Below, piece by piece: positions 24,245-41,183 of a stretch of DNA of 64,000 nucleotides (its first letter is position 1; each line of letters opens with the position of its first letter). The translations under genes were made by a program, and so were the position numbers. Origin of the DNA: Trypanosoma brucei (lineage: Eukaryota). The notes beneath the pieces are model-generated. The model was not told the DNA's origin. It did no database searches and saw nothing but the letters and a program-made list of their open reading frames with translations. The stretch covers positions 480,001-544,000 of the forward strand of contig CM000207.1 of NCBI GenBank assembly GCA_000002445.1. The letters run 5' to 3'.

Positions 24245-25348
24245 TCAGCGGCGCCGCCACACGGTGCAATGAGCAACCCCCAACTGGTAGCGACGAACAT
24301 GATCACGAATAAGAAATGCCTCATCTGTTTCACTGAGAAGATCAAAGTTCGCTCCCAATATTTCCTTCACCAATATTTCACTCGTTGACCCTTCTGCCCT
24401 TCCACCAACCCACGTATCCCGCTCCTCTACCGAACCCTCCCATGAATATGGTGAGGAGATCACGAGGATGCCACCAGAAACGAGCAGCAGCGGCAGCATA
24501 TCCAACAGCTTGCGAGGGTTGGGAACGCGACAGAGCAGATTCGCAACAAGCACAGCGTCAAAGCGCTCTCCTGAAGGAACACGGTACCATGAAGTTATAT
24601 CTTCATCATTTGTATCACCATGGTGGACGGGAGGCACAATATGACCTCTGCCATCATCGCCATCCGAATCAAGAAGATTCATTGCGTCGCCCCGATAGAA
24701 ACGGCACCGTTGAGGAACCGCCCCATCCGGTAGACATGCAGTGCGCTCCACTGTAATATCACCCTGCAAAGGGGCCTCATATTTGATTGGCTGTATGTTT
24801 GGGTTCAGCGCGCTTTGCACGACATTTCTCGCCATTTTGATGAATGCCACAGAGTAATCAATCCCGACAACCCGGCTGAAATATTTACTCATCTCCAGAG
24901 AGGAAGCACCAACCGCACACCCCAAATCAAGAGCACGTCTTTCCTTTCCATCATTAGCAGGCACAAATTCATGAAACTTGCGAGCGACTCGGATGGGATA
25001 ATCAAAGCTCTCAGATATCATACGAAGGTTTTGCGCAAAGCTTTCCGACGAGAGGGTGTAGTGAAACTCCATGTATTGCCGCACACTTGCATCACTTTCG
25101 TAAACGTTCGCCGGTTCTGAGGGACGACAGAGCGCCCAATGGGGAAACCACTTTCCAAAAAACCCAAACAGTTTACGAAGCACCCAAACCCCATCCGTCC
25201 AAGATAGGAACTTGTAGCGACAGCGCAGGAAGTGATCAAAAACGTCACGAAAGGCATATGTCGCTGCGGAGGAAACGACAGCCGTAAAAATGACACTACC
25301 CACTAAACATCTCGTCTCGGGAGCGGTACATTTGCACAACGCCAGCAT
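24245..25348 (-). CDS. S-adenosylmethionine-dependent methyltransferase (class I) domain protein, 367 aa
   Basis: Motif I LDLGCAVGASS is present, followed by motif II/III-like RFDAVLVANLL and a post-I acidic residue. Confidence 0.7.
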   Translation of the reverse strand: MLALCKCTAPETRCLVGSVIFTAVVSSAATYAFRDVFDHFLRCRYKFLSWTDGVWVLRKLFGFFGKWFPHWALCRPSEPANVYESDASVRQYMEFHYTLSSESFAQNLRMISESFDYPIRVARKFHEFVPANDGKERRALDLGCAVGASSLEMSKYFSRVVGIDYSVAFIKMARNVVQSALNPNIQPIKYEAPLQGDITVERTACLPDGAVPQRCRFYRGDAMNLLDSDGDDGRGHIVPPVHHGDTNDEDITSWYRVPSGERFDAVLVANLLCRVPNPRKLLDMLPLLLVSGGILVISSPYSWEGSVEERDTWVGGRAEGSTSEILVKEILGANFDLLSETDEAFLIRDHVRRYQLGVAHCTVWRRR

Positions 25349-25462
25349 AACACAATAAGTTTGGAACCAATGAAAATAAAACTAGAAAATTCAACCTCAC
25401 TGTACGTGCAGTCAAGGAAGAAAAAGCAGGAAAACTGAGCACGGCATCACATTATTCACAAG

Positions 25463-25829
25463 TAGACACCGAAAAAAAAAAAGCAGTATAGAATACACGA
25501 CCCATAAGGCATCATTCAAAGGGGTTGTCAGATTGCTGAAAAAGGGAAATGAAGAGAAAATAATATAACATGGATATACACACAAAACAACAACAACATT
25601 AAAAACACCACAAAGGCCGAATCGAACGGCTGCGAGTCCAACTCGCCTACGGGTTTGAAGCCCGCACCCAGCACCAGCTGAGCTCATCGTGGCGCAACTT
25701 TTTCTTCCATCATCGGATTGAAATTCCATACTCGTGTCATACAGTCGCGTTTTGGGTGGTGACAAGTAACATTTCTCCTTCTCATTCCTTTAAATCCTTT
25801 TTCTTCATCTTTTAGTTGCAAGAAAAAAA
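25463..25829. repeat. 367-bp direct repeat, copy 1 (identical to 29300-29666), carrying tRNA-Sec
   Basis: The two copies are read as identical in the sequence at a 3837-bp offset. The flanks diverge at both ends. Confidence 0.9.
25606..25693 (-). tRNA. tRNA-Sec (anticodon UCA), copy 1, 88 nt
   Basis: Folded by hand as follows. The acceptor stem is 9 bp, GCCACGAUG paired with CUUUGUGGU, with a G73 discriminator. The D-stem is 6 bp (CUCAGC/GCUGGG) with a 4-nt loop. The anticodon stem is 6 bp (UGCGGG/CCCGUA) with loop CUUCAAA, giving anticodon UCA. The variable arm is a long 6-bp stem (GCGAGU/ACUCGC). The T-stem is 4 bp (GCCG/CGGC) with loop UUCGAUU. This is the 9/4 structure characteristic of eukaryotic tRNA-Sec. 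Confidence 0.8.
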
Positions 25830-26181
25830 CAATAGGTTGGAAGAAAACAACAGAAGAGACAATACTTTGGTTGCGTGGAAGTTAGAGTGACTTGTCAAAG
25901 AAAAAATAAGCGTACCACTGGCCAATGGCCCTCCGGCGCGTAGCGGATACCACATCCGCAACACATGCTTATGCCAAGGGATCGTTAGCAGTATCAACAA
26001 TGGAACAGAAGGAAAGCAAATGAGTATATAAAGTAAAGAAGAAAAAAACAGTGGAGATGCGCCACCTCTGCCAGCTTGCACCTCTAAGGACTATGAGAGA
26101 GAAAGAGGGGAAAAGCGTCAGTGCGAAGAGTGGCTAAGCAAAACGCAGCAGAAGTTATAACTGTGAATAAAAATCGTGCCA

Positions 26182-29100
26182 TCACCACCTACGGTGGGCA
26201 CTGCATCGATAGACTGAGGAAGAACACTGAGACACGGCACGAGCACGCGGCCGTGATTGAAGAATTAAGGCACCCTCCGTTCTGAAACATATATCTGACA
26301 CAAGTTTGTTGACTCGAGCCCGGATTTCCGTACCGTCATCAAGCGTCTCCCTCATAAATTGAGCACATTCACAAGGTGATGGGACTGGGCTTACACACAG
26401 CCACCGTGTGATACGATTTGGTGGGATTGCCCAATGCTGTGCACATTCTTTTATCTCCTCCTCTTCCTTGTGAAGAAGCCTAAACTCTGCATCGTCAAGT
26501 GCTTCCAGCCACTTGTCCATACACCCCTCCAGTTTGGTTGTTGAAGGTCCCACATCCCCAATATGGTTATCATAAGGAACATCTTCACAATCGGTAGTTG
26601 TCGCATCACCGTGCTGAGAGCGACGATGCGCATCCACGAGGTTCGCCCGCCAGTGCATGAAAACGGTATGAACATCACCTGTGATTGTTGTAATGCGATT
26701 CGGCGGAGCGGGAGACGGTATGGCCAACGGCACAGCAGAGACATACTCAACAATAAAACACCGCTCCCCGGCACCGGCGAAATAGTTGTGGCTCCAGCTC
26801 ACCCACGGTAAGGGACTCAACGTGTTGCCACACGCCGTCGCGGTATCGGTTTCCCCGTCAAGGCGATCCTCCAACCACGTGTTGACAGCCGAAACCAACA
26901 TCTCCATTGCGCAGTGTGCAGCTTCCTCCTCGTCCAGAATGTCCTCGTCGTCCTCGATAAGAGAGGGCAGGTAGACCTTATCGACGCGTGCGCTAGCACT
27001 CAGTCTTAATTGTGAATGGATGAAGAAATTGGTGTTCAGGCCGCGTGCTTCTAGCTCTTCGAGCAGTGGCCCGTTGTCGCCAACAGTCTGGAAAGCAATG
27101 TCATATTCTTGCATCTGTAAGAAAACCCGCTCTACAAAACACAAGGTCTTCGGCATGTACATCGGTAGCTTCCGATGGCTTTCATGGTCAGTAGTGCTTT
27201 GCACAGAAACGATGGGATCGACTGGTGTGTCGTACGCACGCAAGTTGCCTAGCGCTGTGAGGATATGTTCAAGAAGTGAAGTGGTTTGGGCGTTCCCCCG
27301 CCGCTCCAGCATATCTCCAGAAACATCGACGCTCCACCAGTGAACGACGTTATGGGGGAGGTAACGCCCATTATCTATTGGTAGAACACTTGGTGTCATG
27401 GTGCGACCTAGTAACGCCGCCTCTTCCTCATCTTCCTCCTCTTCCTCATCGCTGTCACCCAAGCACACGTCCAACAGCACATCTTCTTTTCCCTCGACAA
27501 TGCGCTTAACAGAGGCTTCCACCGACTTCTCCCACCATGGCATGCGTAAAGAAAAAATGGGGGACTCAAGAAGCAATTTCTTGGCAGTAGGTCGTTCCGC
27601 CGGGTCTACTGCCATCATCCTGTCAATGCAATGCAAGAACTCTGCCGAAAGATTTCGTGCCCGCAGTGCCCTTGCCATTAGCTGAACACTTGGTGTGAGA
27701 ACCCATGGAGGCCACTGAGTTGTGCTTGTCACTCCCTCCTTTGTTTCATCCCCACTCAAGGAGGTATACCGGGTGTACTGTGTGCCACTGATGCGGTCGG
27801 TAGCGATGATGTTACCATCCTCTTTGTCCACCCCTACGCTGTGCTCACCACAAATACTCTCCTCGTGGCACCCGCGTCGAGCAGCAAGCTCCCGTATAGA
27901 GATTTGAAGCGCCTTGTCGTCTACAAGTGGAATCACCGCCAGTGTTGCCAGCGGTGGGTAGTCACCTCGCGCAACCCAAAGACGTGCTGCAACTGTGGCA
28001 TTACTTTCGGACTCCGTTGGTGACATAAAGGATGGAATCATACCGTTAAAAGTAACTGTCAACATGCCCTCATCCATTCCTAGACCCCCTCCAGTTAGAA
28101 ACACGTAGAAAAGCGCAGCTGCACTCCAAATATCAGACGCGTACGAGTACGGGCACCGGTGCCGATATCCCCAATATCGCGCAATTTCCGGCGGTAAGTA
28201 GGCGCAAGATCCAACCACTGTACGCTCAGTTTGGGAGTCCGAATCTGTTACCTTAGTTGCAATACCGAAGTCAGCAAGGATCAACTCGACGTTGCTTTCC
28301 CAGTTGGTGGGGGAGACCCTGTTGCGGAGGAGTATGTTGGATGGTTTGATGTCTCTGTGCAGTAACCCGTTTCCGTGCAAGCACGCGAGCCCGCTTAGTA
28401 TCTGTGACATCCAGCATACGAGATGTTCCTCAGCTATGTAAGAGCCATACAGTTTGAGCAGTTCCCCGAAGGTGCCGCCGATCCCCACCTCAACGACCAT
28501 GTGCACGGAAGTCGGTGCTGCCACTGTGCGAGGAGATGATGTTGGCATACAGTCGGTACCGTATAATGGATCGTGTTCCACAAAAACACCATAAAAACGT
28601 TCGAGCCGGGGATGTCGAGGAAGCGTGGCAATGACTTGGGCTTCACGTAAAAGGTTGCACAACATGGGGCAGTGGTTTAACACTGCACAACCAACACCAC
28701 TTGGTGTCAGGTGCAATTCATTCATTGCACCTTCACGACCGCAAACACTCGATAGCAGCATGATCGGAGAAGGAAGTTGCGTGAAACTTTTCGCAGCAAA
28801 GAAACGAGTGGGCCGTAGACGGCTCTGCAACACGGTCACAGAGCTAAAGCTCCCGGTGCCTAACTTCAAAACAGTGTTAAAAAGGCAATCGATGGAATAA
28901 CTGCTGTTGAAGATGATACCGTCAATGTCGTCTCCCTCACCCCAATCACCAGTGGCTTCCCCACACGAGGCACAAGCGTGTTGTCCAGACCGAAAACCAC
29001 TGCTTCCCCCGGATAGCAGGCGATCCACGGGGTACTCGTGCAGTGACGATTTTGAACCCGAGCCCAATAGTGGAAAACGCAACCCCCCATTGGGTCCAAC

Positions 29101-29196
29101 CGTTCGCTTTACGAGATCATCACACCAGGAGAGGGGGACACCATCAAGAATATGCGAGGGAGGGAACAAAATGTTGACAGTCAGATACTCCTCCAT
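26182..29196 (-). CDS. Ser/Thr protein kinase with long C-terminal extension (1004 aa)
   Basis: Motifs include the Gly-loop LGTGSFSSV, a β3 Lys in FFAAKSF, HRDIKPSNILL, DFGIATKV, and a PPE (APE-like) motif. The C-terminus has about 550 aa with acidic runs. Confidence 0.8.
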   Translation of the reverse strand: MEEYLTVNILFPPSHILDGVPLSWCDDLVKRTVGPNGGLRFPLLGSGSKSSLHEYPVDRLLSGGSSGFRSGQHACASCGEATGDWGEGDDIDGIIFNSSYSIDCLFNTVLKLGTGSFSSVTVLQSRLRPTRFFAAKSFTQLPSPIMLLSSVCGREGAMNELHLTPSGVGCAVLNHCPMLCNLLREAQVIATLPRHPRLERFYGVFVEHDPLYGTDCMPTSSPRTVAAPTSVHMVVEVGIGGTFGELLKLYGSYIAEEHLVCWMSQILSGLACLHGNGLLHRDIKPSNILLRNRVSPTNWESNVELILADFGIATKVTDSDSQTERTVVGSCAYLPPEIARYWGYRHRCPYSYASDIWSAAALFYVFLTGGGLGMDEGMLTVTFNGMIPSFMSPTESESNATVAARLWVARGDYPPLATLAVIPLVDDKALQISIRELAARRGCHEESICGEHSVGVDKEDGNIIATDRISGTQYTRYTSLSGDETKEGVTSTTQWPPWVLTPSVQLMARALRARNLSAEFLHCIDRMMAVDPAERPTAKKLLLESPIFSLRMPWWEKSVEASVKRIVEGKEDVLLDVCLGDSDEEEEEDEEEAALLGRTMTPSVLPIDNGRYLPHNVVHWWSVDVSGDMLERRGNAQTTSLLEHILTALGNLRAYDTPVDPIVSVQSTTDHESHRKLPMYMPKTLCFVERVFLQMQEYDIAFQTVGDNGPLLEELEARGLNTNFFIHSQLRLSASARVDKVYLPSLIEDDEDILDEEEAAHCAMEMLVSAVNTWLEDRLDGETDTATACGNTLSPLPWVSWSHNYFAGAGERCFIVEYVSAVPLAIPSPAPPNRITTITGDVHTVFMHWRANLVDAHRRSQHGDATTTDCEDVPYDNHIGDVGPSTTKLEGCMDKWLEALDDAEFRLLHKEEEEIKECAQHWAIPPNRITRWLCVSPVPSPCECAQFMRETLDDGTEIRARVNKLVSDICFRTEGALILQSRPRARAVSQCSSSVYRCSAHRRW

Positions 29197-29208
29197 GTAC
29201 AGAAATTG

Positions 29209-29246
29209 CTACGTGAAGGGGGTAAAGGGGAAAAAAAAACGAGAGG
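29209..29246 (-). promoter_or_regulatory. putative polypyrimidine tract plus AG trans-splice acceptor upstream of the kinase ATG
   Basis: The minus strand reads CTCTCGTTTTTTTTTCCCCTTTACCCCCTTCAC, then GTAG, 13 nt before the ATG. This is the typical kinetoplastid SL-addition signal. Confidence 0.4.
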
Positions 29247-29299
29247 TTTCGGTGGTAGCGAATTCTTAATAGTGTGGTGTTGTACAATGAGATTAAAAA

Positions 29300-29666
29300 T
29301 AGACACCGAAAAAAAAAAAGCAGTATAGAATACACGACCCATAAGGCATCATTCAAAGGGGTTGTCAGATTGCTGAAAAAGGGAAATGAAGAGAAAATAA
29401 TATAACATGGATATACACACAAAACAACAACAACATTAAAAACACCACAAAGGCCGAATCGAACGGCTGCGAGTCCAACTCGCCTACGGGTTTGAAGCCC
29501 GCACCCAGCACCAGCTGAGCTCATCGTGGCGCAACTTTTTCTTCCATCATCGGATTGAAATTCCATACTCGTGTCATACAGTCGCGTTTTGGGTGGTGAC
29601 AAGTAACATTTCTCCTTCTCATTCCTTTAAATCCTTTTTCTTCATCTTTTAGTTGCAAGAACAGGT
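29300..29666. repeat. 367-bp direct repeat, copy 2, carrying tRNA-Sec
   Basis: Identical to 25463-25829. Confidence 0.9.
29443..29530 (-). tRNA. tRNA-Sec (anticodon UCA), copy 2
   Basis: The sequence is identical to copy 1 at offset +3837. Confidence 0.8.
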
Positions 29667-29839
29667 TGAGGCATGATAGCGTGTTGTACTGTATCCCACG
29701 TTCCGTCTAATGTGAAAAGAACAAATGTAAGAGTGCCTCGCAGAGAACTCATGGCACGGTCATACTCGTTGCCTTTGATGAATCATACATGAGTGTACCC
29801 TTTTGTACATTAATTTATTTTTTTTTCTAAGCGGGTATC

Positions 29840-29965
29840 TCATCCCTCAAGTGAAGTTACTAAAAGTTGCTTGGGTGTGAACTCAGTTTCGAGATGACTG
29901 AGAATCCAACTTGGCATACGGTGGCCACGGAGCGATGAGGCACATTCACCATCTGTGGACCCCAT
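29840..29965 (-). pseudogene. 5' fragment (41 codons) of a paralogue of the 32261..32845 gene family
   Basis: The first 28 codons (MGSTDGECASSLRGHRMPSWILSHLETE) are identical to the start of the 32261..32845 gene. The sequence then diverges and reaches a stop after 13 more codons. It lies inside the 320-bp repeat. Confidence 0.6.
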
Positions 29966-30200
29966 CCCTTCAAGAGTTTCGTAGGACTGTATATATGGGT
30001 CACTTAAATACGACCTCTACGAAAACAACTTGGACACGGGACAAAACAAAAAACAAAGAGCAAAGAAAGAAAGAAAGAGGAGAACCAAGAGGGAAAAGGA
30101 GCGGGTGAATGAAGTGATGGATTGATTGAATTGAAGGATGACAGCAAACACGCAATAATAGTGAGTGCGCCATACAACAAAATGAAGAAATTGAGAAGAG
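29881..30200. repeat. About 320-bp direct repeat, roughly 98% identical to 32761-33080
   Basis: The identical 65-aa plus ORFs 29911..30108 and 32791..32988 are side-effects of this repeat. The repeat contains the 5' UTR and first 28 codons of the family gene. Confidence 0.85.
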
Positions 30201-30836
30201 GGATGGTGGGAGGAAAAAAGAAAAGAACGTTTTCATTCAATAGTCAACGAAAAGGCCAACAGAAAATGGAAGGGATTCGGAGTCACTTTTCTCGCACCGC
30301 CTCCCATACCGCTGGAACGGTTCAATTACGAAGGGCAGCGGTAACACGAGGAAAAAGCAGGTGGAAAGAAAAACATTTTTGACCGCTCATAGCGCTAAGA
30401 AAAAAAAAAAGTGACCTCTCCAACAAGCTGCAAACCCCCACAACCGACAGGGGTAGTCACTGCAATGCCCTCCCTTCCCCCCCCCCCCAGGAACACGCTT
30501 ACATTTGCTTTGCTTTTCGTTTCTTTTTGATAGGTATGTCATCGATGCTGTACCTGACGCTATATTTGCACTACTAATACGTATACAAAAATACATACAT
30601 ACTCATTTACTTATAGTTAGTTGCACCATTTTGGCACTTGAAAAGCCACTCCCTCGACCGTTAATGCCAGCACAGAAGGTGCATAATGTATGTGTAAAAT
30701 AGTACCTTATAAAACAAATACGAAAACACGCGCGCGCGAGTAAAGGCAAAGGAGTTAGGGTGCGATGCTGTACGAGGAAGCACCACTCTATTTCTTTAAC
30801 TTTTTCCTCTAGTTCCCGGAAAGAACAGTGCTCGAA

Positions 30837-31433
30837 TTATTTCCGTGGATAAAGGGCAACGGTACGCCAGAAATTGTACACCTTCAGCTGGTTGTGGAAC
30901 CGGCTTTCCTCACTGGGATCGTGAGAATGATCCAAAACAAATGTAACCACAAGTCGATCGGTGAATTTCATCTTCATCTGGCCAATGCGCTCCGATGAAA
31001 TGCCGCAACAGGCAGCCACATCTTCCTTGATGGCTCGCTCCAGAGCCACAGACATATTAGAGAGAGCTTGCGACCAACGTGCCCCGCGGAACCGGATCGT
31101 GTGGGTAACGGCCGTTCTCCCGGCAACTGGTTGAAGAGACCGTACGGAAACGTTTGTACCCGATTCACGACGAGAAGTACTGCGGTTATCAAAAGAGAAA
31201 ATCCTGTCGCCACCACTCCTGGAAGAAACTCTCTCGGTATAGTTGTTGTACACCGCTCCCTGCTTTTCCCCATTCGATCCAGAAAAGGAAGCCTTGCGAG
31301 GATTCATGCCATCCGCTGTGAGAGGAGGGGCAACGTGACCTCTGTTTACAGACGCCCGGCGGTTGGCGACCCAATCCGGCATACGATGAACAACCTCTCG
31401 TTGGCTATAGTTAACACCGTTCTGTGTTGTCAT
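30837..31433 (-). CDS. hypothetical protein, family member A (198 aa)
   Basis: Shares an N-terminal HRMPDWVANRR motif and a C-terminal THTIRFRGARW...AIKEDVAACCG...VVTFVLDHSHD region with the ORFs at 32261..32845 and 33726..34358. Confidence 0.6.
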   Translation of the reverse strand: MTTQNGVNYSQREVVHRMPDWVANRRASVNRGHVAPPLTADGMNPRKASFSGSNGEKQGAVYNNYTERVSSRSGGDRIFSFDNRSTSRRESGTNVSVRSLQPVAGRTAVTHTIRFRGARWSQALSNMSVALERAIKEDVAACCGISSERIGQMKMKFTDRLVVTFVLDHSHDPSEESRFHNQLKVYNFWRTVALYPRK

Positions 31434-32260
31434 TTTTCGTCACTTGGGGGCAAACCTTGATGTTAGCTGCACGTGTATGACGACGGAACGTTACACACAG
31501 AGTATGAGAGGAAGGGAATAAGAAGGGATATGAGAAGTCACGGAAACACGAACTACAATGGAATTCAACTACTTTCAGCGACCGTGCGACGTGGCAAGCA
31601 AAGAAATAATTTAATGAAAGGATACATTAACAAATATGTTGAAATGCAGCAGTTGGCCACCCCGCAATGACGTTTGTAAACCGTCAGAGAGTAACGAGTG
31701 TCCTATGACCAAATACGCGAGGAGACATTTAACTCCCCTACTTTACGGCGATCGGGAAGAGCAATCAGACCCCATTGTGTCTTATATCTTGATGCTCACT
31801 TCCCTCGCCCCAATACAACGGACAAATTAACCCCTTGGATAATAATGGCATCCTTTACGCAGCACAGAGGGGAGGAGGAGAGAAAAAAAGAGGAAAACGT
31901 CAAACGTTGCTGGGTTACCAGAGATATAGAAATGTGCCCTTCCCCCACTTCTATATTCCCTAACCCCCTGAATGTCAATAACTGTATAAAACACTGGGAG
32001 GTCGGCACTCACAATATTTTCTTTACTTCACTTTCTCCTTTTTCCCCACTTAAAAATACATTCCTTCATGTGGTAGGAATGTATTTGTGTAGACACATTC
32101 TAAAGAAGCGAAACAAGGAAAAAGCTTTTCCATTACGCGTAAGTGTTTTTTTTTTCGTTTGCCTTCCTATACATGGTCGTCACTGTAAAATAACAATCAA
32201 ACAGCAAAAAAGGTACCTATGTATGACAATTGGTGCCCCCCCCAAAAAAAGTGTATACTT

Positions 32261-32845
32261 TCATCTTAGCAAATAGAGCGATGAAGTTCTCGGAAATTTG
32301 CATACTTTCAAGCGGGCATGGAAGGGCCGCTCCCCGCCATCATCATGCGAGTGGTCGACAATGAATGTTACCACAAGAATATCAGTAAGTTTCAGCTCCA
32401 GCTGAAGAATACGACCAATATCGAGTCCACATCCCTCGCTAATATCCTCCTTGACGGCCTGCGCCACGAGATCCTTTTTCTCTTCTATCAAATTTGCCCA
32501 ATCCGACATGCGAAACCGAATAGTATGTCTGGCAATTCGGTGCCCATTACCTGGTACGGCTGATTGTACAGACACGGAGGGCCTAGAACTACGACAGGAA
32601 TCGGCGCATTCTTCTTCTACAGGCATCACGATCTTTTCCTTTGGAGGTGCCTTCTTTAATATTTTAAGACCTTGCGGGAATCTTTTCTTCAGCACGGTGA
32701 CAGGAACACTTGGAGGGGCCTTCTCCTCTTCGACCAGTGGCGTATCATTCAGGCACTTGGACTCAGTTTCGAGATGACTGAGAATCCAACTTGGCATACG
32801 GTGGCCACGGAGCGATGAGGCACATTCACCATCTGTGGACCCCAT
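32261..32845 (-). CDS. hypothetical protein, family member B (194 aa)
   Basis: Contains RMPSWILSH, RHTIRFRMSDW, AVKEDISEGCG and VVTFIVDHSHDD, which are paralogous to member A. Confidence 0.6.
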   Translation of the reverse strand: MGSTDGECASSLRGHRMPSWILSHLETESKCLNDTPLVEEEKAPPSVPVTVLKKRFPQGLKILKKAPPKEKIVMPVEEECADSCRSSRPSVSVQSAVPGNGHRIARHTIRFRMSDWANLIEEKKDLVAQAVKEDISEGCGLDIGRILQLELKLTDILVVTFIVDHSHDDGGERPFHARLKVCKFPRTSSLYLLR

Positions 32846-33080
32846 CCCTTCAAGAGTTTCGTAGGACTGTATATATGGGTCACTTAAATACGACCTCTAC
32901 GAAAACAACTTGGACACGGGACAAAACAAAAAACAAAGAGCAAAGAAAGAAAGAAAGAGGAGAACCAAGAGGGAAAAGGAGCGGGTGAATGAAGTGATGA
33001 ATTGATTGAATTGAAGGATGACAGCAAACACGCAATAATAGTGAGTGCAGCATACAACAAAATGAATAAATTGAGAAGGG
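32761..33080. repeat. About 320-bp direct repeat, copy 2 (see 29881-30200)
   Basis: Read directly from the sequence. Confidence 0.85.
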
Positions 33081-33725
33081 TACATTTTACAGGTATATAA
33101 AAAACGCGGTAACTACTCACCCCTATAATGACGGTAAAGAATCATTAAGGAATAATGAGGACCCCATGACCCAATGCGCGAGGAAACCTTCAACAGGTAT
33201 ATAAGGTGTGGGAAACATCCACCAAGATACCGCATCAATTGCATAAAATACTATCACCATTTAATCCTCACCATCCATTTCGTGGACCACCTCTTCAATA
33301 CCCCCTTTCCCTCCTCTTCCTCCTCCTCCCACGTGGCACACGATGGTTACATGGGTTAGGAGGGAGAGACATAAGGAAAGAAAAAAACAAACAAACAAAC
33401 AAACGTACCAACAAAAAATCATACAATCAAGAATATCATGCGCTCACTCACCTTTAAATACATATGTCCACATATATACATCAACATGAACATAAGGGGG
33501 TGATACTGCATCAAGGCAACAAAGCGGACACACAAGCACTAATTAGAATTTGGGTATTTGAGGGTGTGGACGAAGGAAAAGAAAAAAAACAAGAGGAACA
33601 AAGGAGAAGAAAGAATAACAATAAAATTAACTGCTTTTTTTTTTTTTGGTGTTCTAATACTGTTGCTGGTGGGCCCTTGTCGGCATTGATATGGGAGGGG
33701 GAAGGGGACTTCAAGATAGTCTAGT

Positions 33726-34358
33726 TTAGCTGTCATGTTGCTTGGTAATAACTTTCCCCATCTTGTGGTCAAGAAATAACGTTGCTAACGGGGTACCAGA
33801 GAGAAATACATTACATTCCAAGAAACGTTCCGCGTCCCCCTCTTCAGCACCGCATTCTTCATCCTCAAACGCAACTTCAAAACCTTCCTCTTCATCCTTG
33901 CCGTTTAGCAGTGGCTTCCACCCCGACCCACGGAAACGAACAACATGTTTGGTCGCATTACCGTCACTTCCAGGACCCGAAGACAGCAGAGATAAGGAGG
34001 GACCTCTACCGTTATCGCGCCCTGCAAGCCTCCTGAGAGAAGCGACCTCGTTATTTTCTTTTGATGGAGTTCGTTCTGCAATACTGGCGGCATCAGTTGA
34101 GGGTTCCACAGCTAATATAGTATCCAGTCTCTGTTCCGAGTCGCCAACGGTTGTATTTTCCGGTGACTCGCATGATGTAAATGCGGGGGACTCGCTGTCC
34201 GAAACTGTGGTAGGCTTGCGGCCTGAGCCGCTTTGAGGAGACATAACGGGAGCCGTACCAAGGGGAGTGTTGATGGGTAAATTAAAACGTCTGCGAACCC
34301 AGTCGGGCATGGGGTGCCATGTGAGGCTATTGATTATATCCTCCGCGTAATACGGCAT
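33726..34358 (-). CDS. hypothetical protein, divergent family member C (210 aa)
   Basis: Contains HPMPDWVRRRF, HVVRFRGSGW and LFLDHKMGK. It is a more divergent paralogue. Confidence 0.5.
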   Translation of the reverse strand: MPYYAEDIINSLTWHPMPDWVRRRFNLPINTPLGTAPVMSPQSGSGRKPTTVSDSESPAFTSCESPENTTVGDSEQRLDTILAVEPSTDAASIAERTPSKENNEVASLRRLAGRDNGRGPSLSLLSSGPGSDGNATKHVVRFRGSGWKPLLNGKDEEEGFEVAFEDEECGAEEGDAERFLECNVFLSGTPLATLFLDHKMGKVITKQHDS

Positions 34359-35915
34359 CTTTCGTAAGTTACTGACTCAATTTCGTATTTATGTAGGATT
34401 TTAAAAGGATCTTTGTATCACAGAAGGAATAAAAAAACAACAACAAGATGAGAAAAAGCAATCGAATACGTCTCAAAGCAAAGGTGACTCGCAAAGCGAA
34501 ATAGTCACGTGAGAGATGACAATAGCAAAAACGGTAAGAACCAATTTATTCTGTCAATCAGAATACGCCACCCACCGACCCACCCACCCACATATATATA
34601 TGTATCGCAACATGTTGGTTATCCTGACTCTCAAGAATTGTTACCAGCTCCTGCCAGACATTTCAAACCCTTGCATGAACAATAAAAACTTTCAACGCCG
34701 GCAGGCCAACCGCTTACCATCTGTATGGTTATATATCATTTTCACACACCACACGGGCATTAAGATGTCTTACAAGTATGTATTTCTCCGAGTGCCCACA
34801 CATATATTTATTGTGATGTACCAAAATGTGTGTATTATTGAAGCATAAATCCAATATGTGTAAAAGAAACAAATTCACTTTTTGTTTCACCGTAGCGAGA
34901 ACGTGCTAGTCGTAGTGTTGGTAAAGGGAAAAAGGTAAGGAAATGTAAGGAAATAAAGGAAAACAAAATAACACGAACCACACGGTTCGATGTCCGTACG
35001 TGCACATGTGCTCCACAACCACGAACGAATGATTAAAGAGAGCTTGTCACTCTTCAACTTGCCTTCTTCAAGAATTTGTCTCATACCTTCATCACCCCAC
35101 ACTGTCGCAATCATCTGCATCGATTCATTTGTCGGTGTACAGACGAAAAATAAATAAATAATAATAATAATACGAATCAAAAAAAAAAAGGCAGAAGATG
35201 GTTTTATGAGAACATGAATGTGTTTGGGTATTTGCGATATGTAAAGATAACAGAATGGCTTGCGACAAAATAAGATAGTTAAATATAAACGAACTAACTG
35301 AAATCCATCAGATCGCAAAACTTTTAATGTCGCGGTGTTTGGAAAATGAAGTTGCAGGTTGCATGCCTTTGTGTAGTTATTCCGTGTCCTTTAACAAAAA
35401 AAAAGGAGGAGGGGAAAACACTCACCTGTGTTGAATCTATTTTCCTCTCACCACTCTGACAGTAGTGAAGGGTATAACAACGAAGCGATGAGGCGGTCGC
35501 TGCAAAGCGGTGTGCGAAACAATCAGTTTAACAAGACTACAATAGGGGGAGGGAATGACGATAAAAATAATTCGAAGACGAACAAATAGACAAAAAAAAT
35601 AATGTTAGAACAGAAAATGAGTGAACCAAGTACATGTAAGTGGGCGTTAGCTACCCATAGGTCAGATGTTCCACATGTTAGAATGCAGCGATGGGACCAA
35701 ACAAAAGTTTTTCACCACCTCGAGGCACGAACCGCAGTCCTACCTAACACAAATTGCCATACAACACAAGGCACTGCGTGCAAAGTCACGCCATTTCCAG
35801 CACAAACCCCCGTTATCTCATTCGCTGGTAATCTCATCTCTCTCCCTTTTCTTCTTCCATACTCAAACCCCAAACACCCTCTCGAGCGTCCCACGCACGT
35901 TGTTCTTTACCCCCG

Positions 35916-37076
35916 TTAGATTTCACTGGGTTTCTGGACGGAGGCGACATTTTCATCTAACATTGTGGCGACATTTGCTACCTTTATATTTATTGCTGCT
36001 TGGCCGTTATCATCAGACGCGCCTGCCTCTCGTCGTTGGATAACCTTATCCCTCTCATAATCCATCATCCGGCGCAGTAGTTTACTGTAGCTTTCAAACC
36101 ATTGAAACTCCTTTGTTGTATAGTCACAGAACTTTCCTTCAGGGTTCATCAGGTACATGATGATGGAGTGGTCCACAAGATAGTCATCCTCGCTCAGTAC
36201 TGTCTCATCAGGGAGAGCAAAGTAAACGCGGTACTGACGCGCCACTGATTCCACTTCTTCCTGAGTGCCCACAAGCCCCAGAATCCGTGGGTTAAAATCT
36301 GCTAGATAATCCCGTATTTTCTCAGGTGTGTCACGGTGCGGATCGAGGGAAATAAATATGGGCTGCCAGTAGTCACGACCCACCTTCTTGTCAAGGTGTT
36401 GAACGACACGGCTGAGCTTTGCCATCTCCTCCGGGCACACATCAGGGCAGTTGGTGAAACCAAAGTAAATGTAGAGCCACTTTCCAAGAAAGTCCTTTTC
36501 AGTGTAGCGGCGCCCATCGACGCCAATTAATGAGAAGGGCCCGCCAATGCTTGGTCCTTCGGGGCTGTCAAAAGCCTTAACCGCACGTAACTTTGGGTCG
36601 AACCGCATTTGCTCACGCCGCACACGAATAGATATGACAACTGTTATAACTCCCAGAGAAAGGAACAACAAACCCCACAGCATCCACGCGGGGCTGTCCC
36701 GCACCTCAGATAACCGCTCACTAAGTTTTCTCCGTTCCGCCTCCTCCTCTCTTTCCACATATTCTTGAAAGGTAAATATCTGTGAGTCCCTTTGCTCCGC
36801 CACGCGAATGTGAATAGGTTTTTCCTTGTCCACAACGTCAATATCTTTTCCACCACCAGTGCCTCCAGTTGAGTGACGTCTCATCATACTAATGGTTATC
36901 ACATCAACCTGGTGAGAAACCGGCCGAGGAGACGCCGCCCGTATCGCCGGTGCAAATGAGGCGCTACTTCCGCATCGGTGCCTGAAAGCAACGCTGATGG
37001 TCCCGCGGTTCTGCAGTAAATTACAAGAAACACTGCAGTTGATCCCTAAATGGACGAGGTGTGAGCCGCGTATCAT
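35916..37076 (-). CDS. SCO1/SenC-family cytochrome c oxidase assembly copper chaperone (about 386 aa; an alternative start is MMRRHS at 36887)
   Basis: Has a thioredoxin-like domain with the CxxxC copper-binding motif in FGFTNCPDVCPEE and the conserved His in YLVDHSIIMYLMNPEG. A predicted TM helix (WMLWGLLFLSLGVITVVISI) lies N-terminal to the domain. Confidence 0.8.
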   Translation of the reverse strand: MIRGSHLVHLGINCSVSCNLLQNRGTISVAFRHRCGSSASFAPAIRAASPRPVSHQVDVITISMMRRHSTGGTGGGKDIDVVDKEKPIHIRVAEQRDSQIFTFQEYVEREEEAERRKLSERLSEVRDSPAWMLWGLLFLSLGVITVVISIRVRREQMRFDPKLRAVKAFDSPEGPSIGGPFSLIGVDGRRYTEKDFLGKWLYIYFGFTNCPDVCPEEMAKLSRVVQHLDKKVGRDYWQPIFISLDPHRDTPEKIRDYLADFNPRILGLVGTQEEVESVARQYRVYFALPDETVLSEDDYLVDHSIIMYLMNPEGKFCDYTTKEFQWFESYSKLLRRMMDYERDKVIQRREAGASDDNGQAAINIKVANVATMLDENVASVQKPSEI

Positions 37077-38900
37077 TTATTTTCGCACTTCCTCCTCCCT
37101 TTCAACTTTCCTTTCTCTATTCACGTGCAGTGAGGGCACCAATGTGCTTGCTTCAGTGAAGCGAAGCCGTCCCAAGATCAGTTGCTGGAGGTTGCAGACG
37201 CACGTGCACCGAACCACGGAGAATAATTATGTATAAATTGATTTATGTTGCGTGTGAGCGCGTCAAAGCAGTGGAAGAGAGATGCACTCTCCTTTTCCCT
37301 AGATGCAACTTTATACTCTCCCTTCTATTCTTAATACGTATGATGTAATTAACCTAAAGCGGCAGTGGCTCGGCACCAAAACAGGGGAGGGGGTGGGTAA
37401 AACGTGAAAGGTAAAAGGGGCAAAAAAGGAATAAATAGTACAACACACTGCAGAACAAAGAATTATCAAAAAAAAATGAAGAACAAGGGAATGAGGACGG
37501 CCGTCGAGGGAACAGAGTACAGGGGGAAAAGGATGTTAAGGGGTTCGTACACCTCATACAAGCTCCCAAGGGAAAGGGCTGAAGGCAGAGCTGAAAAATC
37601 TATATATATTAAATGCTCCTTTTTTTACTCCTTTCTTCTTCCCCCCTTTTTTCTTTTTGTCGTTTTCTCTTCCATTTCCGCTTTGCAATTCACTATGTTT
37701 GTGGTAAAACTGAAGCCGTGCACTCCAGAGAATGTCATACCATTTGCTGTTGAAACAACAACTGCTCATGAGAGAGATTGCAAATGAGGAATATGAAAAG
37801 TGAAAATAAAAAGAAACACCAACAGTGTCTCCCACGTTTGTCAGTGGGACTTCAACGGTTCCTTCATATTTCTCACAATCCATGGAATCCGAAACCCTTT
37901 TGACCTTTTCATAGTCGGTGGGTATGCCATATATGATGTATATATGCATGTATATGTATGTCCTTCATTTCGTATAAACAGTTTCACATCCTACTTGTTT
38001 CTTGCACATACATGGGTTCCCATCTTTTTGTTTTCACAGATACATTTTAAATCCCCCCTTCCTTCCTTTTCTTTCCGTCTCTTCTTTTTTTTTCTTTTTG
38101 AATTACTGTTCTTCTTCATTTATTTCACTTTTTGCTATGTTCCCTTTTCTTCTCATTCACCTATTCTTCCCTGAAAAAGAACAACTTTTCCCTGCATAAC
38201 ATTATTATTCCTGATATCATCCCCTAATTCGCTTTCATAGTCGCGGTCGGGCACACCTGTACATCCGACCACATTATGGACTCCAGCGCCCCACCAGAAA
38301 CTAGCACAGATGGCTTATTTTGGTTTGGGTGAAGTGTTCAGCATTTTTTTTCAATCCTGGAGAGAATCTCTTTGCTTTTGCTTCTCCCCCATGCACATGT
38401 ACACACGCACACATATATAATTAGAACAAAAATAAAAGAAATACAGATACTTTTCTTCTTCCTTTTTCTTTCCGCTCGATTCAACGGCATGTTTAGTTTA
38501 CCTCTCCTCGCCACATCAGAGGCAAGTCGATCCAATCGCGCTCGACCCCAGCGTTACTTTTCCTTTTTATTATCTTCCTTAGAAAAACCTATGACGACTC
38601 ACTCTTTTACTGCGGTCTTTTAGGTTCCTTCACGTTCTGGGTTCCGCTTCAAAACTTAATACCTCCCAGCGCACAGAAGTGCCAACACGGGCAGAACAAA
38701 CCCGAACGTTCTGACAGCCACCGAGTTACCCATAGTCTGTCTCACTTCCCCCATAGCCAATAGGAGGAAAAGGACAAATCAAATCTGAAAGGGAGACAAA
38801 AATGCATAATACATACAAGAATCTTCAATAATACATGCGCACATTATCCACGCGACGTACCGCCTCCAGTCACATTAGAGTCAGTAACAGTTGGAGAGGT

Positions 38901-41183
38901 TTAAGATGCCTGTTGCACAGATGCATCCTCACTGCCAAGTTCCTCAACATCATTGATACTTGGCTCATCGGCGCCCGGAGCGGCTCCAGCCGCAACGTCA
39001 TTGAAGCTCAGTTCCTCAAGTTCCGCACTCGGGAGTTTGTCTGCTGGATGTTCTGCCGCTGTGGGTGCCTCACCCTCAGGGCCCGGGATATCAGAGTTGG
39101 AACCATCTGATTTCGGGGAGTCACCACCACCCAATTGTTTCATCGTTCCCGCCAGCACTTGATCCCTTCTCACAGCGGATGCCTGTCTCGACGAAGTCTG
39201 CTGTTCTCTCCTCCCACCACGGTCAAAAAAATCATCAGCTGCTTCATTATAACCAAGCAGCGCATAACCGTAGCGCACAGCAGGATCATAGTCACACCGG
39301 ACTTCAGCAATTTCCACGCACGGTTTTCGATAATCTTCATCATCTGTATAGCCATAGTCCTCATCACCGAAGTCTTCCAAAGTCTCCACCAAACCGCTTC
39401 CGGCAAAGTTCAACTCCCACATCCTTTCGCGTCGCAACTGAACCAACCACTCGTCAATACGCAGCTTGCTCATTGATTTCGTCGTTCCACCAGTTAGAGA
39501 ATGGTAGAAGGCACAAACTGTTGGGAAGGCGCAACGCTCTAGCAACGCCTGGAGTTCCTCCTTAGGGGTGCTCTTATCGTGCTCCGTAGTGAACGACGCC
39601 TCCAGTGGGTAACCCTCAAAAGTTAGGTTGGTGAAATTCTCTTTCGGCAATCTGAGTGTCGCAGATGCGTCCTCCTTAAAAGCAGCGTCCAGATATTCAC
39701 GGTGCTCCTCATTATCAAGCACTTCCTGCCACTTATCTCCAGTGAAAAATATGTGCAGATCGGAGTACACTGTGTTCTCAATCCGGCGGCGCTTCTCCAG
39801 ATACAGTTTGTCACGACCAGCCTTCTCCAAGCAGCGGCGCCGCCACACCGTCCTTTCGTGTCGACGATCCACATCCGTGAGGAAGGCATCAAGTTGCCGC
39901 ATCTCCTCCTCATCATCTTCGGTGAACAACTCCTTCTTGCTGAGCTCCTCCATGCGTAACTGCAGTTCGCGCTTCTCCTGGTCATCCCGTTCCTCGGCAG
40001 CGAAGAGAGCCTCAAGTTCGTCAATGTCGTGCAGGTCGTTGACGGTGCGAACTGTCTGCTGCATCTTCAGTACTTCTTCAGGTTGTAGTTGAACATAGAC
40101 GGGAATCTCCTTACCCAGGAGCGTCTTGCTTTCCTTCGGCCCAAAAACAAGTAAAACGCTGTCGAGTGAAACAATATCACTCACAACGCGACCGTTCGTT
40201 GTGCGTTGTACGTAGCATCCTTCAACATTGATAGGTTCCTCTTCATCATTTAGTAGATTAAGTGGTTCTTCACCAATCAAAGCCTGCTTCTTTTCGGAAA
40301 TTTGCACCCCTAACATAGCAATCATCTCACGCAGTCCGTTGACCTCGGTGATAAGAAGAGCTTGTTCTTGGAGTTGAGCGAAGCAACCATCAACGACGCG
40401 TTCCTCCGCCTCCCGAGCTCTTGAACACGCCATCTGCACATTCAGCCACCTCCTAATAACAACTGGAAGTGGAGCACCTTGTAGCGCCTGTGAAGATGCG
40501 CCCTTTCTCTTGCTTTCTTTCAGCGATTCGGCGGGGACCAACGCAAGCTCATTCTTTATCTTCTTCCGTTGCAGTTTCGACAGCGGTGCGACCGTGCAGT
40601 CAAGTTCCATTATCCGCCCAACAAAATCACTTTGACGCATGACAATCTGCATGCTTTCCCAACTTCCATTATGATCCTCTTGTAGGGCAATCATGAGCGC
40701 GCGGACAAGTGAAAACAGTTCCTCAGATGGTCGACCCGCTGAACGTAATTCCCTCCAACTGCGCGCGGGTACTTGTTCAATCGCGGCGCGAACTTGATCA
40801 AGCTCCACCATTTGCTGACGAGTGAACGCCGCTGCAATGGCCTGTTTTTCTTGAGTTACCTCACGGGCACGGTAGAGCCGTTCAGAAGAACGATCCTCAT
40901 CCTCCACCAGCTGCTGGTATTGCTGTTGGAGCGCTTTCAGCTCGTTCAGCCCATCAAGACGATCCTGCTGCACCGCAAGTTCACCCAGTTTTTCGTCATA
41001 CGGTTCAAACCCACCAGGCACGGCATCGACACGATCGAACAATTCGACACGAACGTGCTGACTTGTGGGCAGTCCGATAACACGAGCAAGAGTATTGCTC
41101 CACTCATAATCACCGCCAATCCGTTCCAAGCAAATGTAGTCACTTACATTGACCTCCAAACACGATCTGTTCATTCCCGTCAT
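38901..41183 (-). CDS. hypothetical coiled-coil protein, copy 1 (760 aa)
   Basis: A long ORF. Its N-terminal ~570 aa are nearly identical to the 42177..43916 ORF. It has an acidic, serine-rich C-terminal tail that is unique to this copy. Confidence 0.7.
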   Translation of the reverse strand: MTGMNRSCLEVNVSDYICLERIGGDYEWSNTLARVIGLPTSQHVRVELFDRVDAVPGGFEPYDEKLGELAVQQDRLDGLNELKALQQQYQQLVEDEDRSSERLYRAREVTQEKQAIAAAFTRQQMVELDQVRAAIEQVPARSWRELRSAGRPSEELFSLVRALMIALQEDHNGSWESMQIVMRQSDFVGRIMELDCTVAPLSKLQRKKIKNELALVPAESLKESKRKGASSQALQGAPLPVVIRRWLNVQMACSRAREAEERVVDGCFAQLQEQALLITEVNGLREMIAMLGVQISEKKQALIGEEPLNLLNDEEEPINVEGCYVQRTTNGRVVSDIVSLDSVLLVFGPKESKTLLGKEIPVYVQLQPEEVLKMQQTVRTVNDLHDIDELEALFAAEERDDQEKRELQLRMEELSKKELFTEDDEEEMRQLDAFLTDVDRRHERTVWRRRCLEKAGRDKLYLEKRRRIENTVYSDLHIFFTGDKWQEVLDNEEHREYLDAAFKEDASATLRLPKENFTNLTFEGYPLEASFTTEHDKSTPKEELQALLERCAFPTVCAFYHSLTGGTTKSMSKLRIDEWLVQLRRERMWELNFAGSGLVETLEDFGDEDYGYTDDEDYRKPCVEIAEVRCDYDPAVRYGYALLGYNEAADDFFDRGGRREQQTSSRQASAVRRDQVLAGTMKQLGGGDSPKSDGSNSDIPGPEGEAPTAAEHPADKLPSAELEELSFNDVAAGAAPGADEPSINDVEELGSEDASVQQAS

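What the first reader, a model, noticed from the sequence alone, without database searches (positions are those of the whole stretch)
25463..29666. Two identical tRNA-Sec (UCA) genes embedded in a Pol II-type polycistronic gene array, within direct repeats flanking a kinase gene
At 25606-25693 and 29443-29530 (minus strand) an 88-nt sequence folds into a textbook eukaryotic tRNA-Sec. It has a 9-bp acceptor stem, a 6-bp D-stem with 4-nt loop, anticodon loop CUUCAAA (anticodon UCA), a long 6-bp variable arm, a 4-bp T-stem and a G73 discriminator. The canonical tRNA A-box is absent. Both copies are co-oriented with about 20 protein-coding genes and sit inside identical 367-bp direct repeats on either side of a 1004-aa kinase gene. 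In trypanosomatids, tRNAs are normally Pol III genes clustered at strand-switch regions. tRNA-Sec has been reported as an exception in T. brucei, where it is transcribed by Pol II within a polycistron. This locus matches that arrangement, and it implies a complete selenocysteine machinery in the organism.
Basis: partly seen in the sequence, partly recalled or inferred. Interest (0 to 1): 0.8.

Follow-up and report, generated by a model that had tools for sequence, protein, structure and literature searches.

The report
Known Trypanosoma brucei tRNA-Sec gene pair
The two identical selenocysteine tRNA genes flanking a kinase gene are real, but they are the already published Trypanosoma brucei chromosome 9 locus, where this tRNA was shown in 2010 to be made by RNA polymerase II as part of a long multi-gene transcript.

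Summary
ARAGORN and Rfam (RF01852, 72.3 bits against a cut-off of 47, E = 7.5e-13) both call two identical 88-nt tRNA-Sec(UCA) genes at 25606-25693 and 29443-29530 on the minus strand. They lie in perfect direct repeats on either side of a 1004-aa protein kinase ORF, and every substantial ORF in the 64-kb window is on the same strand. The perfect repeat is 362 bp, not 367.

The locus is already known. Four gene-specific RACE primers and the northern probe of Aeby et al. 2010 (NAR 38:5833) match the window exactly. The two intergenic lengths, 833 and 1640 bp, equal the published ones. The coordinates in Padilla-Mejia et al. 2009 (chr 9: 505,606-505,693 and 509,443-509,530) equal the window coordinates plus 480,000. 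That work showed alpha-amanitin-sensitive, Pol II-dependent and Pol III-independent expression. A 2025 GBE paper describes the same tRNA-kinase-tRNA layout.

New here are only details. The layout is present in six other Trypanosoma genomes, with 2 to 5 copies seen per locus, and is absent from the matching Leishmania major site. The 9/4 cloverleaf is strongly supported by covariation. The two repeat copies evolve in concert. Verdict: real, correctly interpreted, not novel.

The parts
25606..25693 (-). tRNA-Sec(UCA) copy A, 88 nt, in the 833-bp intergenic region between the kinase and the methyltransferase gene
   Evidence: ARAGORN. Rfam RF01852, 72.3 bits. Equals the published chr 9 position 505,606-505,693. 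The Aeby 2010 northern probe is the reverse complement of nt 1-21.
29443..29530 (-). tRNA-Sec(UCA) copy B, identical to copy A, in the 1640-bp intergenic region upstream of the kinase
   Evidence: Equals the published chr 9 position 509,443-509,530.
25463..25824 (-). Direct repeat copy A, 362 bp, 100% identical to copy B. It comprises 131 nt of 5' flank, the tRNA, and 143 nt of 3' flank.
   Evidence: Exact extension of the match. The repeat finder and alignment.
29300..29661 (-). Direct repeat copy B, 362 bp
   Evidence: The single difference from T. b. gambiense lies at the same position in both copies, 25706 and 29543.
26182..29196 (-). 1004-aa Ser/Thr protein kinase ORF (Tb09.160.1090 of Aeby 2010) between the two tRNA genes
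   Evidence: ORF list. Pfam Pkinase, E = 2e-31. The 3'-RACE primers match at 27041-27059 and 27011-27033. Orthologues were found only in Trypanosoma at E <= 1e-30.
24245..25348 (-). 367-aa methyltransferase-domain ORF (Tb09.160.1070), the gene downstream of copy A
   Evidence: The 5'-RACE primers match at 25062-25082 and 25117-25134.
30837..31433 (-). 198-aa ORF with a FAZ1_cons domain (the 'hypothetical protein'), the gene upstream of copy B
   Evidence: The layout matches Fig. 2 of PMC12204681 as described in its text.
25601..25605 (-). T5 run immediately 3' of copy A; the same run is at 29438-29442 for copy B. It looks like a Pol III terminator but is not conserved in other Trypanosoma species.
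   Evidence: Sequence. Comparison of flanks across species.
25536..25560 (-). Polypyrimidine tract followed directly by AG (25537-25536), 69 nt downstream of the tRNA and inside the repeat. The equivalent for copy B is 29373-29397. This is a candidate trans-splice acceptor for the downstream mRNA, and the assignment is inferred.
   Evidence: Pattern scan. Aeby 2010 mapped a splice acceptor for Tb09.160.1070 in this intergenic region, but its exact position is in a figure that is not held.
25809..25829 (-). Polypyrimidine tract 25829-25820 and the next AG at 25810-25809, 116 nt upstream of copy A. This is a candidate for the minor splice acceptor (S') that joins the spliced leader to the tRNA 5' flank, and the assignment is inferred.
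   Evidence: Pattern scan. Aeby 2010 reports spliced-leader-tagged molecules that carry the 5' flank of both tRNA-Sec genes.

Best explanation
These are the two functional selenocysteine tRNA genes of Trypanosoma brucei. The window is chromosome 9, about 480,001-544,000 of the TREU927 reference.

Each gene sits in the spacer between two co-oriented protein-coding genes of one long Pol II transcription unit and has no promoter of its own. Pol II reads through the whole array. [quoted passage not shown] It goes on to serve UGA-to-Sec decoding for the three trypanosomatid selenoproteins.

Shown by published experiments on this exact locus: mature RNA on northern blots; sensitivity to alpha-amanitin; loss after Pol II RNAi but not after Pol III RNAi; silence outside a polycistron unless a promoter is added; and expression when the gene is moved into another polycistron.

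Shown here: the identity of the locus, the fold and its covariation, conservation of the layout across the genus, and homogenisation of the repeats.

Inferred: the exact processing route and which AG sites are used.
For: Identity of the locus:
- The four gene-specific primers of Aeby 2010 match exactly and in the right orientation.
- The northern probe equals nt 1-21 of the tRNA.
- The intergenic lengths of 833 and 1640 bp equal the published values.
- The published chr 9 coordinates equal the window coordinates plus 480,000.
- The downstream protein is 99% identical to that of T. b. gambiense.

tRNA-Sec nature:
- ARAGORN and Rfam at 72.3 bits against a cut-off of 47.
- The 9/4 cloverleaf pairs in 94.9% of cells across 54 distinct sequences, against 38-46% when the 3' partners are slid.
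- 18 of 31 pairs show changes on both sides, and 0 of 500 shuffles reach the observed covariation score.

Pol II context:
- All real ORFs are on one strand, and the 64-kb window holds no other tRNA or Pol III-type RNA that could lend external A/B boxes.
- The A box is disrupted and the B box is off consensus at 2 of 11 positions.
- The T-run after the gene is not conserved in the genus.

Conservation:
- The same tRNA-kinase-tRNA-methyltransferase order is found in T. cruzi, T. theileri, T. melophagium, T. rangeli, T. conorhini and T. b. gambiense.
- The tRNA differs by 0 or 1 nt among them.
Against: Nothing in the sequence argues against it. Four caveats remain.
- The T. brucei gene keeps a B-box-like GTTCGATTC and a T5 run right after the gene.
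[quoted passage not shown] A small Pol III share in T. brucei is therefore argued against only by the 2010 experiments, not by the sequence.
- Because the two copies are identical, expression of each one separately cannot be told apart from the RNA.
- The processing enzymes have not been demonstrated for this precursor.
Confidence: 0.96

Rival explanations
1. Dual transcription. Besides Pol II read-through, Pol III also initiates on these genes, using the B-box-like element and terminating at the T5 run, as reported for the single Leishmania major tRNA-Sec gene.
For: The sequence GTTCGATTC matches the B-box core, and a T5 run follows the gene directly. L. major tRNA-Sec is described as transcribed by both polymerases.
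Against: In T. brucei, Pol III RNAi did not reduce tRNA-Sec, transcription was alpha-amanitin sensitive, and the gene with its flanks was silent outside a polycistron unless a promoter was added. The A box is disrupted and the B box deviates at both ends. The T-run is reduced to TTT, TT or T in T. theileri, T. rangeli, T. conorhini and T. melophagium. [quoted passage not shown]
Confidence: 0.08
2. Only one copy is functional. The other would be a silent passenger of a segmental duplication, or the duplicate would be an assembly artefact.
For: The copies are 100% identical over 362 bp, so RNA data cannot separate them. The authors of the 2025 T. cruzi paper suggest that tRNA-Sec copies may have been swept along by kinase gene amplification.
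Against: A copy on each side of the kinase is present in seven Trypanosoma genomes assembled independently, so it is not an artefact. Both copies are kept intact and homogenised: the one T. b. brucei versus T. b. gambiense difference in the repeat is shared by both copies, while the unique DNA between them has about 0.6% differences. Aeby 2010 found spliced-leader-tagged RNAs with the 5' flank of both genes, and the cassette they transplanted was the copy in the 833-bp spacer.
Confidence: 0.05
3. A tRNA-like element that is not a real selenocysteine tRNA, for example a pseudogene or an sRNA76-like tRNA mimic, as happened with the mis-annotated 'tRNA-Sec' on T. brucei chromosome 4.
For: A tRNA-like RNA (sRNA76) was once mis-annotated as tRNA-Sec in T. 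brucei. The terminal pair is G1.U87, which among the 54 sequences compared is seen only in Trypanosoma.
Against: There is a full-length Rfam match well above the gathering score. All five helices are supported by covariation. The sequence differs by at most 1 nt across the genus. A mature RNA is detected with a probe that matches it exactly. Padilla-Mejia 2009 identify these two as the genuine genes.
Confidence: 0.01

Closest known systems
T. brucei tRNA-Sec genes on chromosome 9 (Aeby et al. 2010, NAR 38:5833, PMC2943599; Padilla-Mejia et al. 2009, PMC2695483)
   Same: It is the same locus. The primers, probe, intergenic lengths, coordinates, flanking genes (Tb09.160.1070, Tb09.160.1090) and identical flanks all agree.
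   Different: Nothing of substance differs. Here the identical stretch is measured as 362 bp, and concerted evolution with T. b. gambiense is shown.
T. cruzi tRNA-SeC / kinase tandem array (Genome Biol Evol 2025, PMC12204681)
   Same: The tRNA sequence is identical. The same kinase is interspersed, the same methyltransferase gene lies downstream, and all are co-oriented.
   Different: T. cruzi Dm28c has 11 copies with the whole tRNA-plus-kinase unit amplified. T. brucei has 2 tRNA copies around a single kinase, and only 362 bp is duplicated.
Leishmania major tRNA-Sec gene (chr 6, single copy)
   Same: It is also inside a Pol II gene array and has the same kind of 9/4 tRNA-Sec. The 2025 paper reports seven differences from the T. 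brucei sequence.
   Different: The neighbouring genes differ. [quoted passage not shown] The L. major site that matches this window has neither the tRNA nor the kinase.
Vertebrate tRNA-Sec genes
   Same: The same 9/4 fold, U.U at acceptor pair 8, UCA anticodon, G73, and an A box disabled by the extra nucleotides.
   Different: Vertebrate genes are Pol III type 3 units with upstream TATA, PSE and DSE elements. The T. brucei genes have no promoter of their own and depend on Pol II read-through.
Intron-encoded or polycistronic snoRNAs and intron-encoded tRNAs
   Same: A small stable RNA is cut out of a Pol II precursor made for other genes.
   Different: Here the host is an intergenic spacer of a trans-spliced polycistron, not an intron.

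Membership tests
Eukaryotic tRNA-Sec (Rfam RF01852, 9/4 type) | Score above the family's curated threshold over the full model | tested here: met
   72.3 bits against a gathering score of 47, model positions 1-91, E = 7.5e-13. ARAGORN calls tRNA-SeC.
Eukaryotic tRNA-Sec (Rfam RF01852, 9/4 type) | UCA anticodon in a 7-nt loop | tested here: met
   The loop is CUUCAAA, at positions 34-40.
Eukaryotic tRNA-Sec (Rfam RF01852, 9/4 type) | 9-pair acceptor stem plus 4-pair T stem, 6-pair D stem with 4-nt loop, and a long variable arm | tested here: met
   Read from the sequence. Across 54 distinct sequences, 94.9% of cells pair, against 38-46% when slid, and 18 of 31 pairs show double changes. Acceptor pair 8-80 is U.U in all 54.
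Eukaryotic tRNA-Sec (Rfam RF01852, 9/4 type) | G73 discriminator | tested here: met
   G88 is invariant in alignment A2.
Eukaryotic tRNA-Sec (Rfam RF01852, 9/4 type) | Serylation, then conversion by PSTK and SepSecS, and delivery by EFSec | not testable with these tools
   Published for trypanosomes, as cited in Aeby 2010 and da Silva 2020. Not tested here.
Pol II-transcribed, polycistron-embedded tRNA-Sec of Trypanosoma (Aeby 2010) | Lies in a spacer between co-oriented protein-coding genes, with no strand switch or Pol III gene cluster nearby | tested here: met
   All real ORFs are on the minus strand across 64 kb, and there is no other tRNA or Rfam hit.
Pol II-transcribed, polycistron-embedded tRNA-Sec of Trypanosoma (Aeby 2010) | Sequence identity with the published locus | tested here: met
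   Primers, probe, spacer lengths and coordinates all agree.
Pol II-transcribed, polycistron-embedded tRNA-Sec of Trypanosoma (Aeby 2010) | Alpha-amanitin sensitivity, Pol II dependence, and silence outside a polycistron | not testable with these tools
   Experimental results, published for this locus.
Standard Pol III (type 2) tRNA gene | Consensus internal A box | tested here: not met
   The sequence TGaGCTCAGcTGG has an inserted A after position 2 of the box. This is read from the sequence and agrees with Padilla-Mejia 2009.
Standard Pol III (type 2) tRNA gene | Consensus internal B box | tested here: inconclusive
   In cGTTCGATTCg, 9 of 11 positions match, with C for G at position 1 and G for C at position 11.
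Standard Pol III (type 2) tRNA gene | Oligo-T terminator just after the gene, conserved among relatives | tested here: inconclusive
   T5 in T. brucei and T10-12 in T. cruzi, but only TTT, TT or T in four other Trypanosoma species.

The most novel reading that the evidence does not exclude
The 362-bp unit may be a self-contained 'Pol II tRNA cassette'. In this reading its flanks carry the processing signals: a minor spliced-leader acceptor about 116 nt upstream, and the polypyrimidine-AG acceptor of the next mRNA 69 nt downstream. Gene conversion would keep the two copies identical because release of the tRNA is mechanically coupled to trans-splicing of the kinase and methyltransferase mRNAs. 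The concerted evolution is shown here. The coupling is speculation.
Probability: 0.25. Interest if true: 0.3.

Novelty: already known. Interest (0 to 1): 0.1.

Why it matters
The biology is remarkable: a nuclear tRNA made by RNA polymerase II, the textbook exception to 'tRNAs are Pol III products'. But it was found and tested on this very locus in 2009-2010 and revisited in 2025, so the finding adds no new knowledge. Its value is as a positive control. A reader working from raw sequence alone recovered the genes, the fold, the repeat structure and the correct interpretation.

The small additions made here concern how the arrangement is maintained, not what it is:
- a genus-wide survey of the tRNA-kinase unit;
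- homogenisation of the two repeats;
- a non-conserved T-run after the gene;
- no relic of the tRNA at the matching Leishmania site;
- kinetoplastid-like tRNA-Sec sequences in metagenomes.

Tried and rejected
(1) Finding the Leishmania tRNA-Sec locus.
- The Leishmania orthologue of the downstream methyltransferase led to the matching site (L008). That site has no tRNA-Sec, even at E <= 1, and no kinase.
- The kinase has no Leishmania orthologue at E <= 1e-30.
- I then used the ORF next to a kinetoplastid-like tRNA-Sec on metagenome contig L109 as a bridge. It turned out to be a YdcF/DUF218 protein whose nearest relatives are bacterial, with no trypanosomatid hit.

(2) Padilla-Mejia 2015 (PMC4346570, dual transcription in L. 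major) is not held, so it is cited only through papers that cite it.

(3) No supplementary files are held for the 2010 and 2025 papers. The mapped poly(A) and splice sites (A, S, S') could therefore not be placed on the sequence, and the AG sites given are my inference.

(4) The T. vivax contig starts at the methyltransferase gene, so it is uninformative.

(5) The single-sequence MFE fold does not give the cloverleaf. It gives -40.1 kcal/mol with the variable and T arms merged. The cloverleaf with U8.U80 left open is -39.3 kcal/mol. I relied on covariation instead.

(6) Within Trypanosoma alone there is no compensatory change. There is one C-G to U-G change and one loop change. The covariation test therefore needed the wider metagenome set. 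In that set the anticodon arm was fixed by the search pattern, so that helix carries little independent weight.

(7) The tandem-repeat finder found nothing at score >= 150.


Full report

Yes. ARAGORN finds exactly two tRNA genes in the 64-kb window, both tRNA-SeC(tca), at 25606-25693 and 29443-29530 on the minus strand. Rfam finds the same two and nothing else at gathering thresholds: RF01852 tRNA-Sec, 72.3 bits against a cut-off of 47, E = 7.5e-13, full model. The two 88-nt sequences are identical.

Read from the sequence, the parts are:
- Acceptor 1-9 with 79-87. This is nine positions with U8.U80 non-standard and G.U at 1-87 and 6-82.
- AG at positions 10-11.
- D stem of 6 bp (CUCAGC/GCUGGG) with loop UGGU.
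- Anticodon stem of 6 bp with loop CUUCAAA.
- Variable arm of 6 bp (GCGAGU/ACUCGC) with loop UGG.
- T stem of 4 bp (GCCG/CGGC) with loop UUCGAUU.
- Discriminator G88.

One number is off. The perfect direct repeat is 362 bp (25463-25824 = 29300-29661, offset 3837), and the next bases differ. Between the repeats lies a 1004-aa ORF with a protein kinase domain. About 19 non-overlapped ORFs of at least 150 aa are all on the minus strand. Nearly all plus-strand ORFs of that size overlap minus-strand ones.

**2. What is it?**

It is the published T. brucei tRNA-Sec locus. Aeby et al. 2010 (PMC2943599) describe two identical tRNA-Sec genes with identical flanks. They lie in intergenic regions of 1640 and 833 bp between three adjacent genes of one polycistron, and the middle gene, Tb09.160.1090, is a Ser/Thr kinase.
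- In the window the spacers 29197-30836 and 25349-26181 are exactly 1640 and 833 bp.
- The paper's two 3'-RACE primers for Tb09.160.1090 match at 27041-27059 and 27011-27033 (minus strand).
- Its two 5'-RACE primers for Tb09.160.1070 match at 25062-25082 and 25117-25134 (plus strand, antisense to the gene, as reverse primers should be).
- The northern probe ACCAGCTGAGCTCATCGTGGC is the reverse complement of nt 1-21 of the tRNA.
- Padilla-Mejia et al. 2009 (PMC2695483) place the genes at chr 9 505,606-505,693 and 509,443-509,530. These are the window coordinates plus exactly 480,000.
- The downstream protein is 99% identical to the T. b. gambiense DAL972 protein.
- A 2025 paper (PMC12204681) again describes the T. 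brucei TREU927 layout: hypothetical protein, tRNA-SeC, kinase, tRNA-SeC, methyltransferase.

**3. Fold and covariation.**

Within the genus the tRNA hardly varies:
- It is identical in T. b. brucei, T. b. gambiense and T. cruzi.
- C14U occurs in T. theileri and T. melophagium. This turns a D-stem C-G into U-G.
- G56U occurs in T. rangeli and T. conorhini, in the variable loop.

To test the helices I scanned metagenome contigs with GGTGCNGGCTTCAAACCNGTAG. This returned 120 contigs, and ARAGORN called 99 tRNA-SeC genes in them. Five of these are kinetoplastid-like:
- L109 and L088, 86 of 88 nt identical;
- L060 and L030, 84 of 88;
- L020, 79 of 88.

On 54 distinct sequences aligned in 88 columns, the 9/4 cloverleaf performs as follows:
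- It pairs in 94.9% of cells, against 38-46% when the 3' partners are slid by 1-3 columns.
- 18 of 31 pairs carry changes on both sides.
- No shuffle of 500 reaches the observed covariation score.

Pair 8-80 is U.U in every sequence, so the 'mismatch' is a family feature. The anticodon arm was fixed by the search pattern and so adds little independent evidence. G1.U87 occurs only in the three Trypanosoma variants. All the others have G-C at that pair.

**4. Context in relatives.**

Using the downstream methyltransferase as an anchor, I fetched the matching loci and scanned them. Every Trypanosoma locus with enough sequence shows co-oriented tRNA-Sec genes on both sides of the kinase, followed by the methyltransferase.

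| Species | tRNA-Sec copies seen | Kinase genes |
|---|---|---|
| T. cruzi | 3, in 21 kb | 2 |
| T. theileri | 3 | not counted |
| T. melophagium | 5 | 2 |
| T. rangeli | 2 | not counted |
| T. conorhini | 2 | not counted |
| T. b. gambiense | 2 | not counted |

The matching L. major site has the FAZ1_cons genes and the methyltransferase. It has neither the kinase nor any tRNA-Sec-like sequence, even at E <= 1. The kinase has no Leishmania orthologue at E <= 1e-30. This agrees with the published statement that the L. major gene sits in a different polycistron.

**5. How it works.**

Published experiments on this locus show the following:
- sensitivity to alpha-amanitin;
- loss on Pol II RNAi but not on Pol III RNAi;
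- no expression outside a polycistron unless a promoter is added;
- expression after transplantation into the VDAC polycistron;
- one continuous RNA across the 833-bp spacer;
- rare spliced-leader-tagged RNAs carrying the tRNA 5' flank.

The sequence is consistent with this:
- There is no other tRNA or Pol III-type RNA within 64 kb that could supply external boxes.
- The A box is disrupted by an inserted A, and the B box deviates at 2 of 11 positions.
- The T5 run after the gene is T10-12 in T. cruzi but only TTT, TT or T in four other species. It is therefore not a conserved terminator.

My own inference concerns the splice sites. The repeat carries a polypyrimidine tract ending in AG 69 nt downstream of the tRNA (25560-25536 and 29397-29373). 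This is the likely acceptor for the next mRNA. A second tract and AG lie 116 nt upstream (25829-25809), a candidate for the minor site. The tRNA would then lie in the piece discarded between the upstream poly(A) site and the downstream splice site, from which RNase P and 3' nucleases would release it.

**6. Maintenance of the repeat.**

I aligned the 4.8-kb unit of T. b. brucei with that of T. b. gambiense. It shows 29 substitutions, an 18-nt in-frame deletion and one 1-nt indel. Inside the 362-bp repeats there is a single difference, and it is at the same position in both copies (25706 and 29543, A to G). The two copies are therefore homogenised, presumably by gene conversion.

In other species the identical stretch has different limits. 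In T. rangeli it runs 27 nt upstream and 138 nt downstream of the tRNA. In T. cruzi and T. melophagium the whole kinase unit is repeated.

**7. Rivals.**

- A Pol III share, as in L. major, is not excluded by the sequence, but the T. brucei experiments argue against it.
- 'One copy is dead or an artefact' is unlikely, given seven independent assemblies and the homogenisation.
- A 'tRNA mimic' is excluded by the Rfam score, the covariation and the published northern blots.

**8. Verdict.**

Noticed in passing
L004 6171-9167 (T. b. gambiense DAL972); window equivalent about 26804: The kinase between the two tRNA-Sec genes is interrupted by a stop codon in T. b. gambiense, giving ORFs of 791 aa and 206 aa. 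It also carries an 18-nt in-frame deletion (window 27433-27450). No gene is called there in that assembly. It may be a pseudogene in this subspecies, or a sequencing error.
   Followed up: partly
window 24245-25348 (-): The methyltransferase gene downstream of tRNA-Sec resembles the C-terminal domain of OvoA (TIGR04345, putative 4-mercaptohistidine N1-methyltransferase; 158.5 bits, just under the cut-off of 170). Its non-trypanosomatid relatives are named that way. It may be a stand-alone ovothiol-type methyltransferase.
   Followed up: partly
window 44525-63976 (-): A single 6483-aa ORF is made of at least 64 FAZ1_cons repeats of about 93 aa each. The repeats are diverged enough at DNA level that the tandem-repeat finder reports nothing.
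   Followed up: partly
window 30837-43916 (-): A run of smaller FAZ1_cons-domain genes lies upstream of the tRNA-Sec unit (30837-31433, 32261-32845, 38901-41183, 42177-43916). The last two look like tandem paralogues. FAZ1_cons genes occupy the same position in T. theileri, T. conorhini and L. major.
   Followed up: no
window 29144-29602 (-); L004 9620-9937: Spurious ORFs run across the tRNA-Sec genes. One is a 152-aa TTG ORF over copy B. Another is a 105-aa gene call over a copy in T. b. gambiense. Padilla-Mejia 2009 note the same for Tb09.160.1080 ('hypothetical protein, unlikely').
   Followed up: yes
window 25606/25693 and 29443/29530 (tRNA positions 1 and 87): The terminal acceptor pair is G1.U87 in all Trypanosoma tRNA-Sec sequences. 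It is G-C in the other 51 distinct sequences compared, including the kinetoplastid-like ones from metagenomes.
   Followed up: partly
L109 2353-2440 (-), L088, L060, L030, L020 (JGI metagenome contigs): Environmental contigs carry tRNA-Sec genes 90-98% identical to the T. brucei one, presumably from uncultured kinetoplastids. On L109 the tRNA is co-oriented with two downstream ORFs. One of these is a YdcF/DUF218 protein whose nearest relatives are bacterial.
   Followed up: partly
L007 324-9863 (T. melophagium), L002 2706-9820 (T. theileri): These species have extra tRNA-Sec copies that are not separated by a kinase, with spacings of 1181-2193 bp. The amplification unit is therefore not always 'tRNA plus kinase'.
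   Followed up: no
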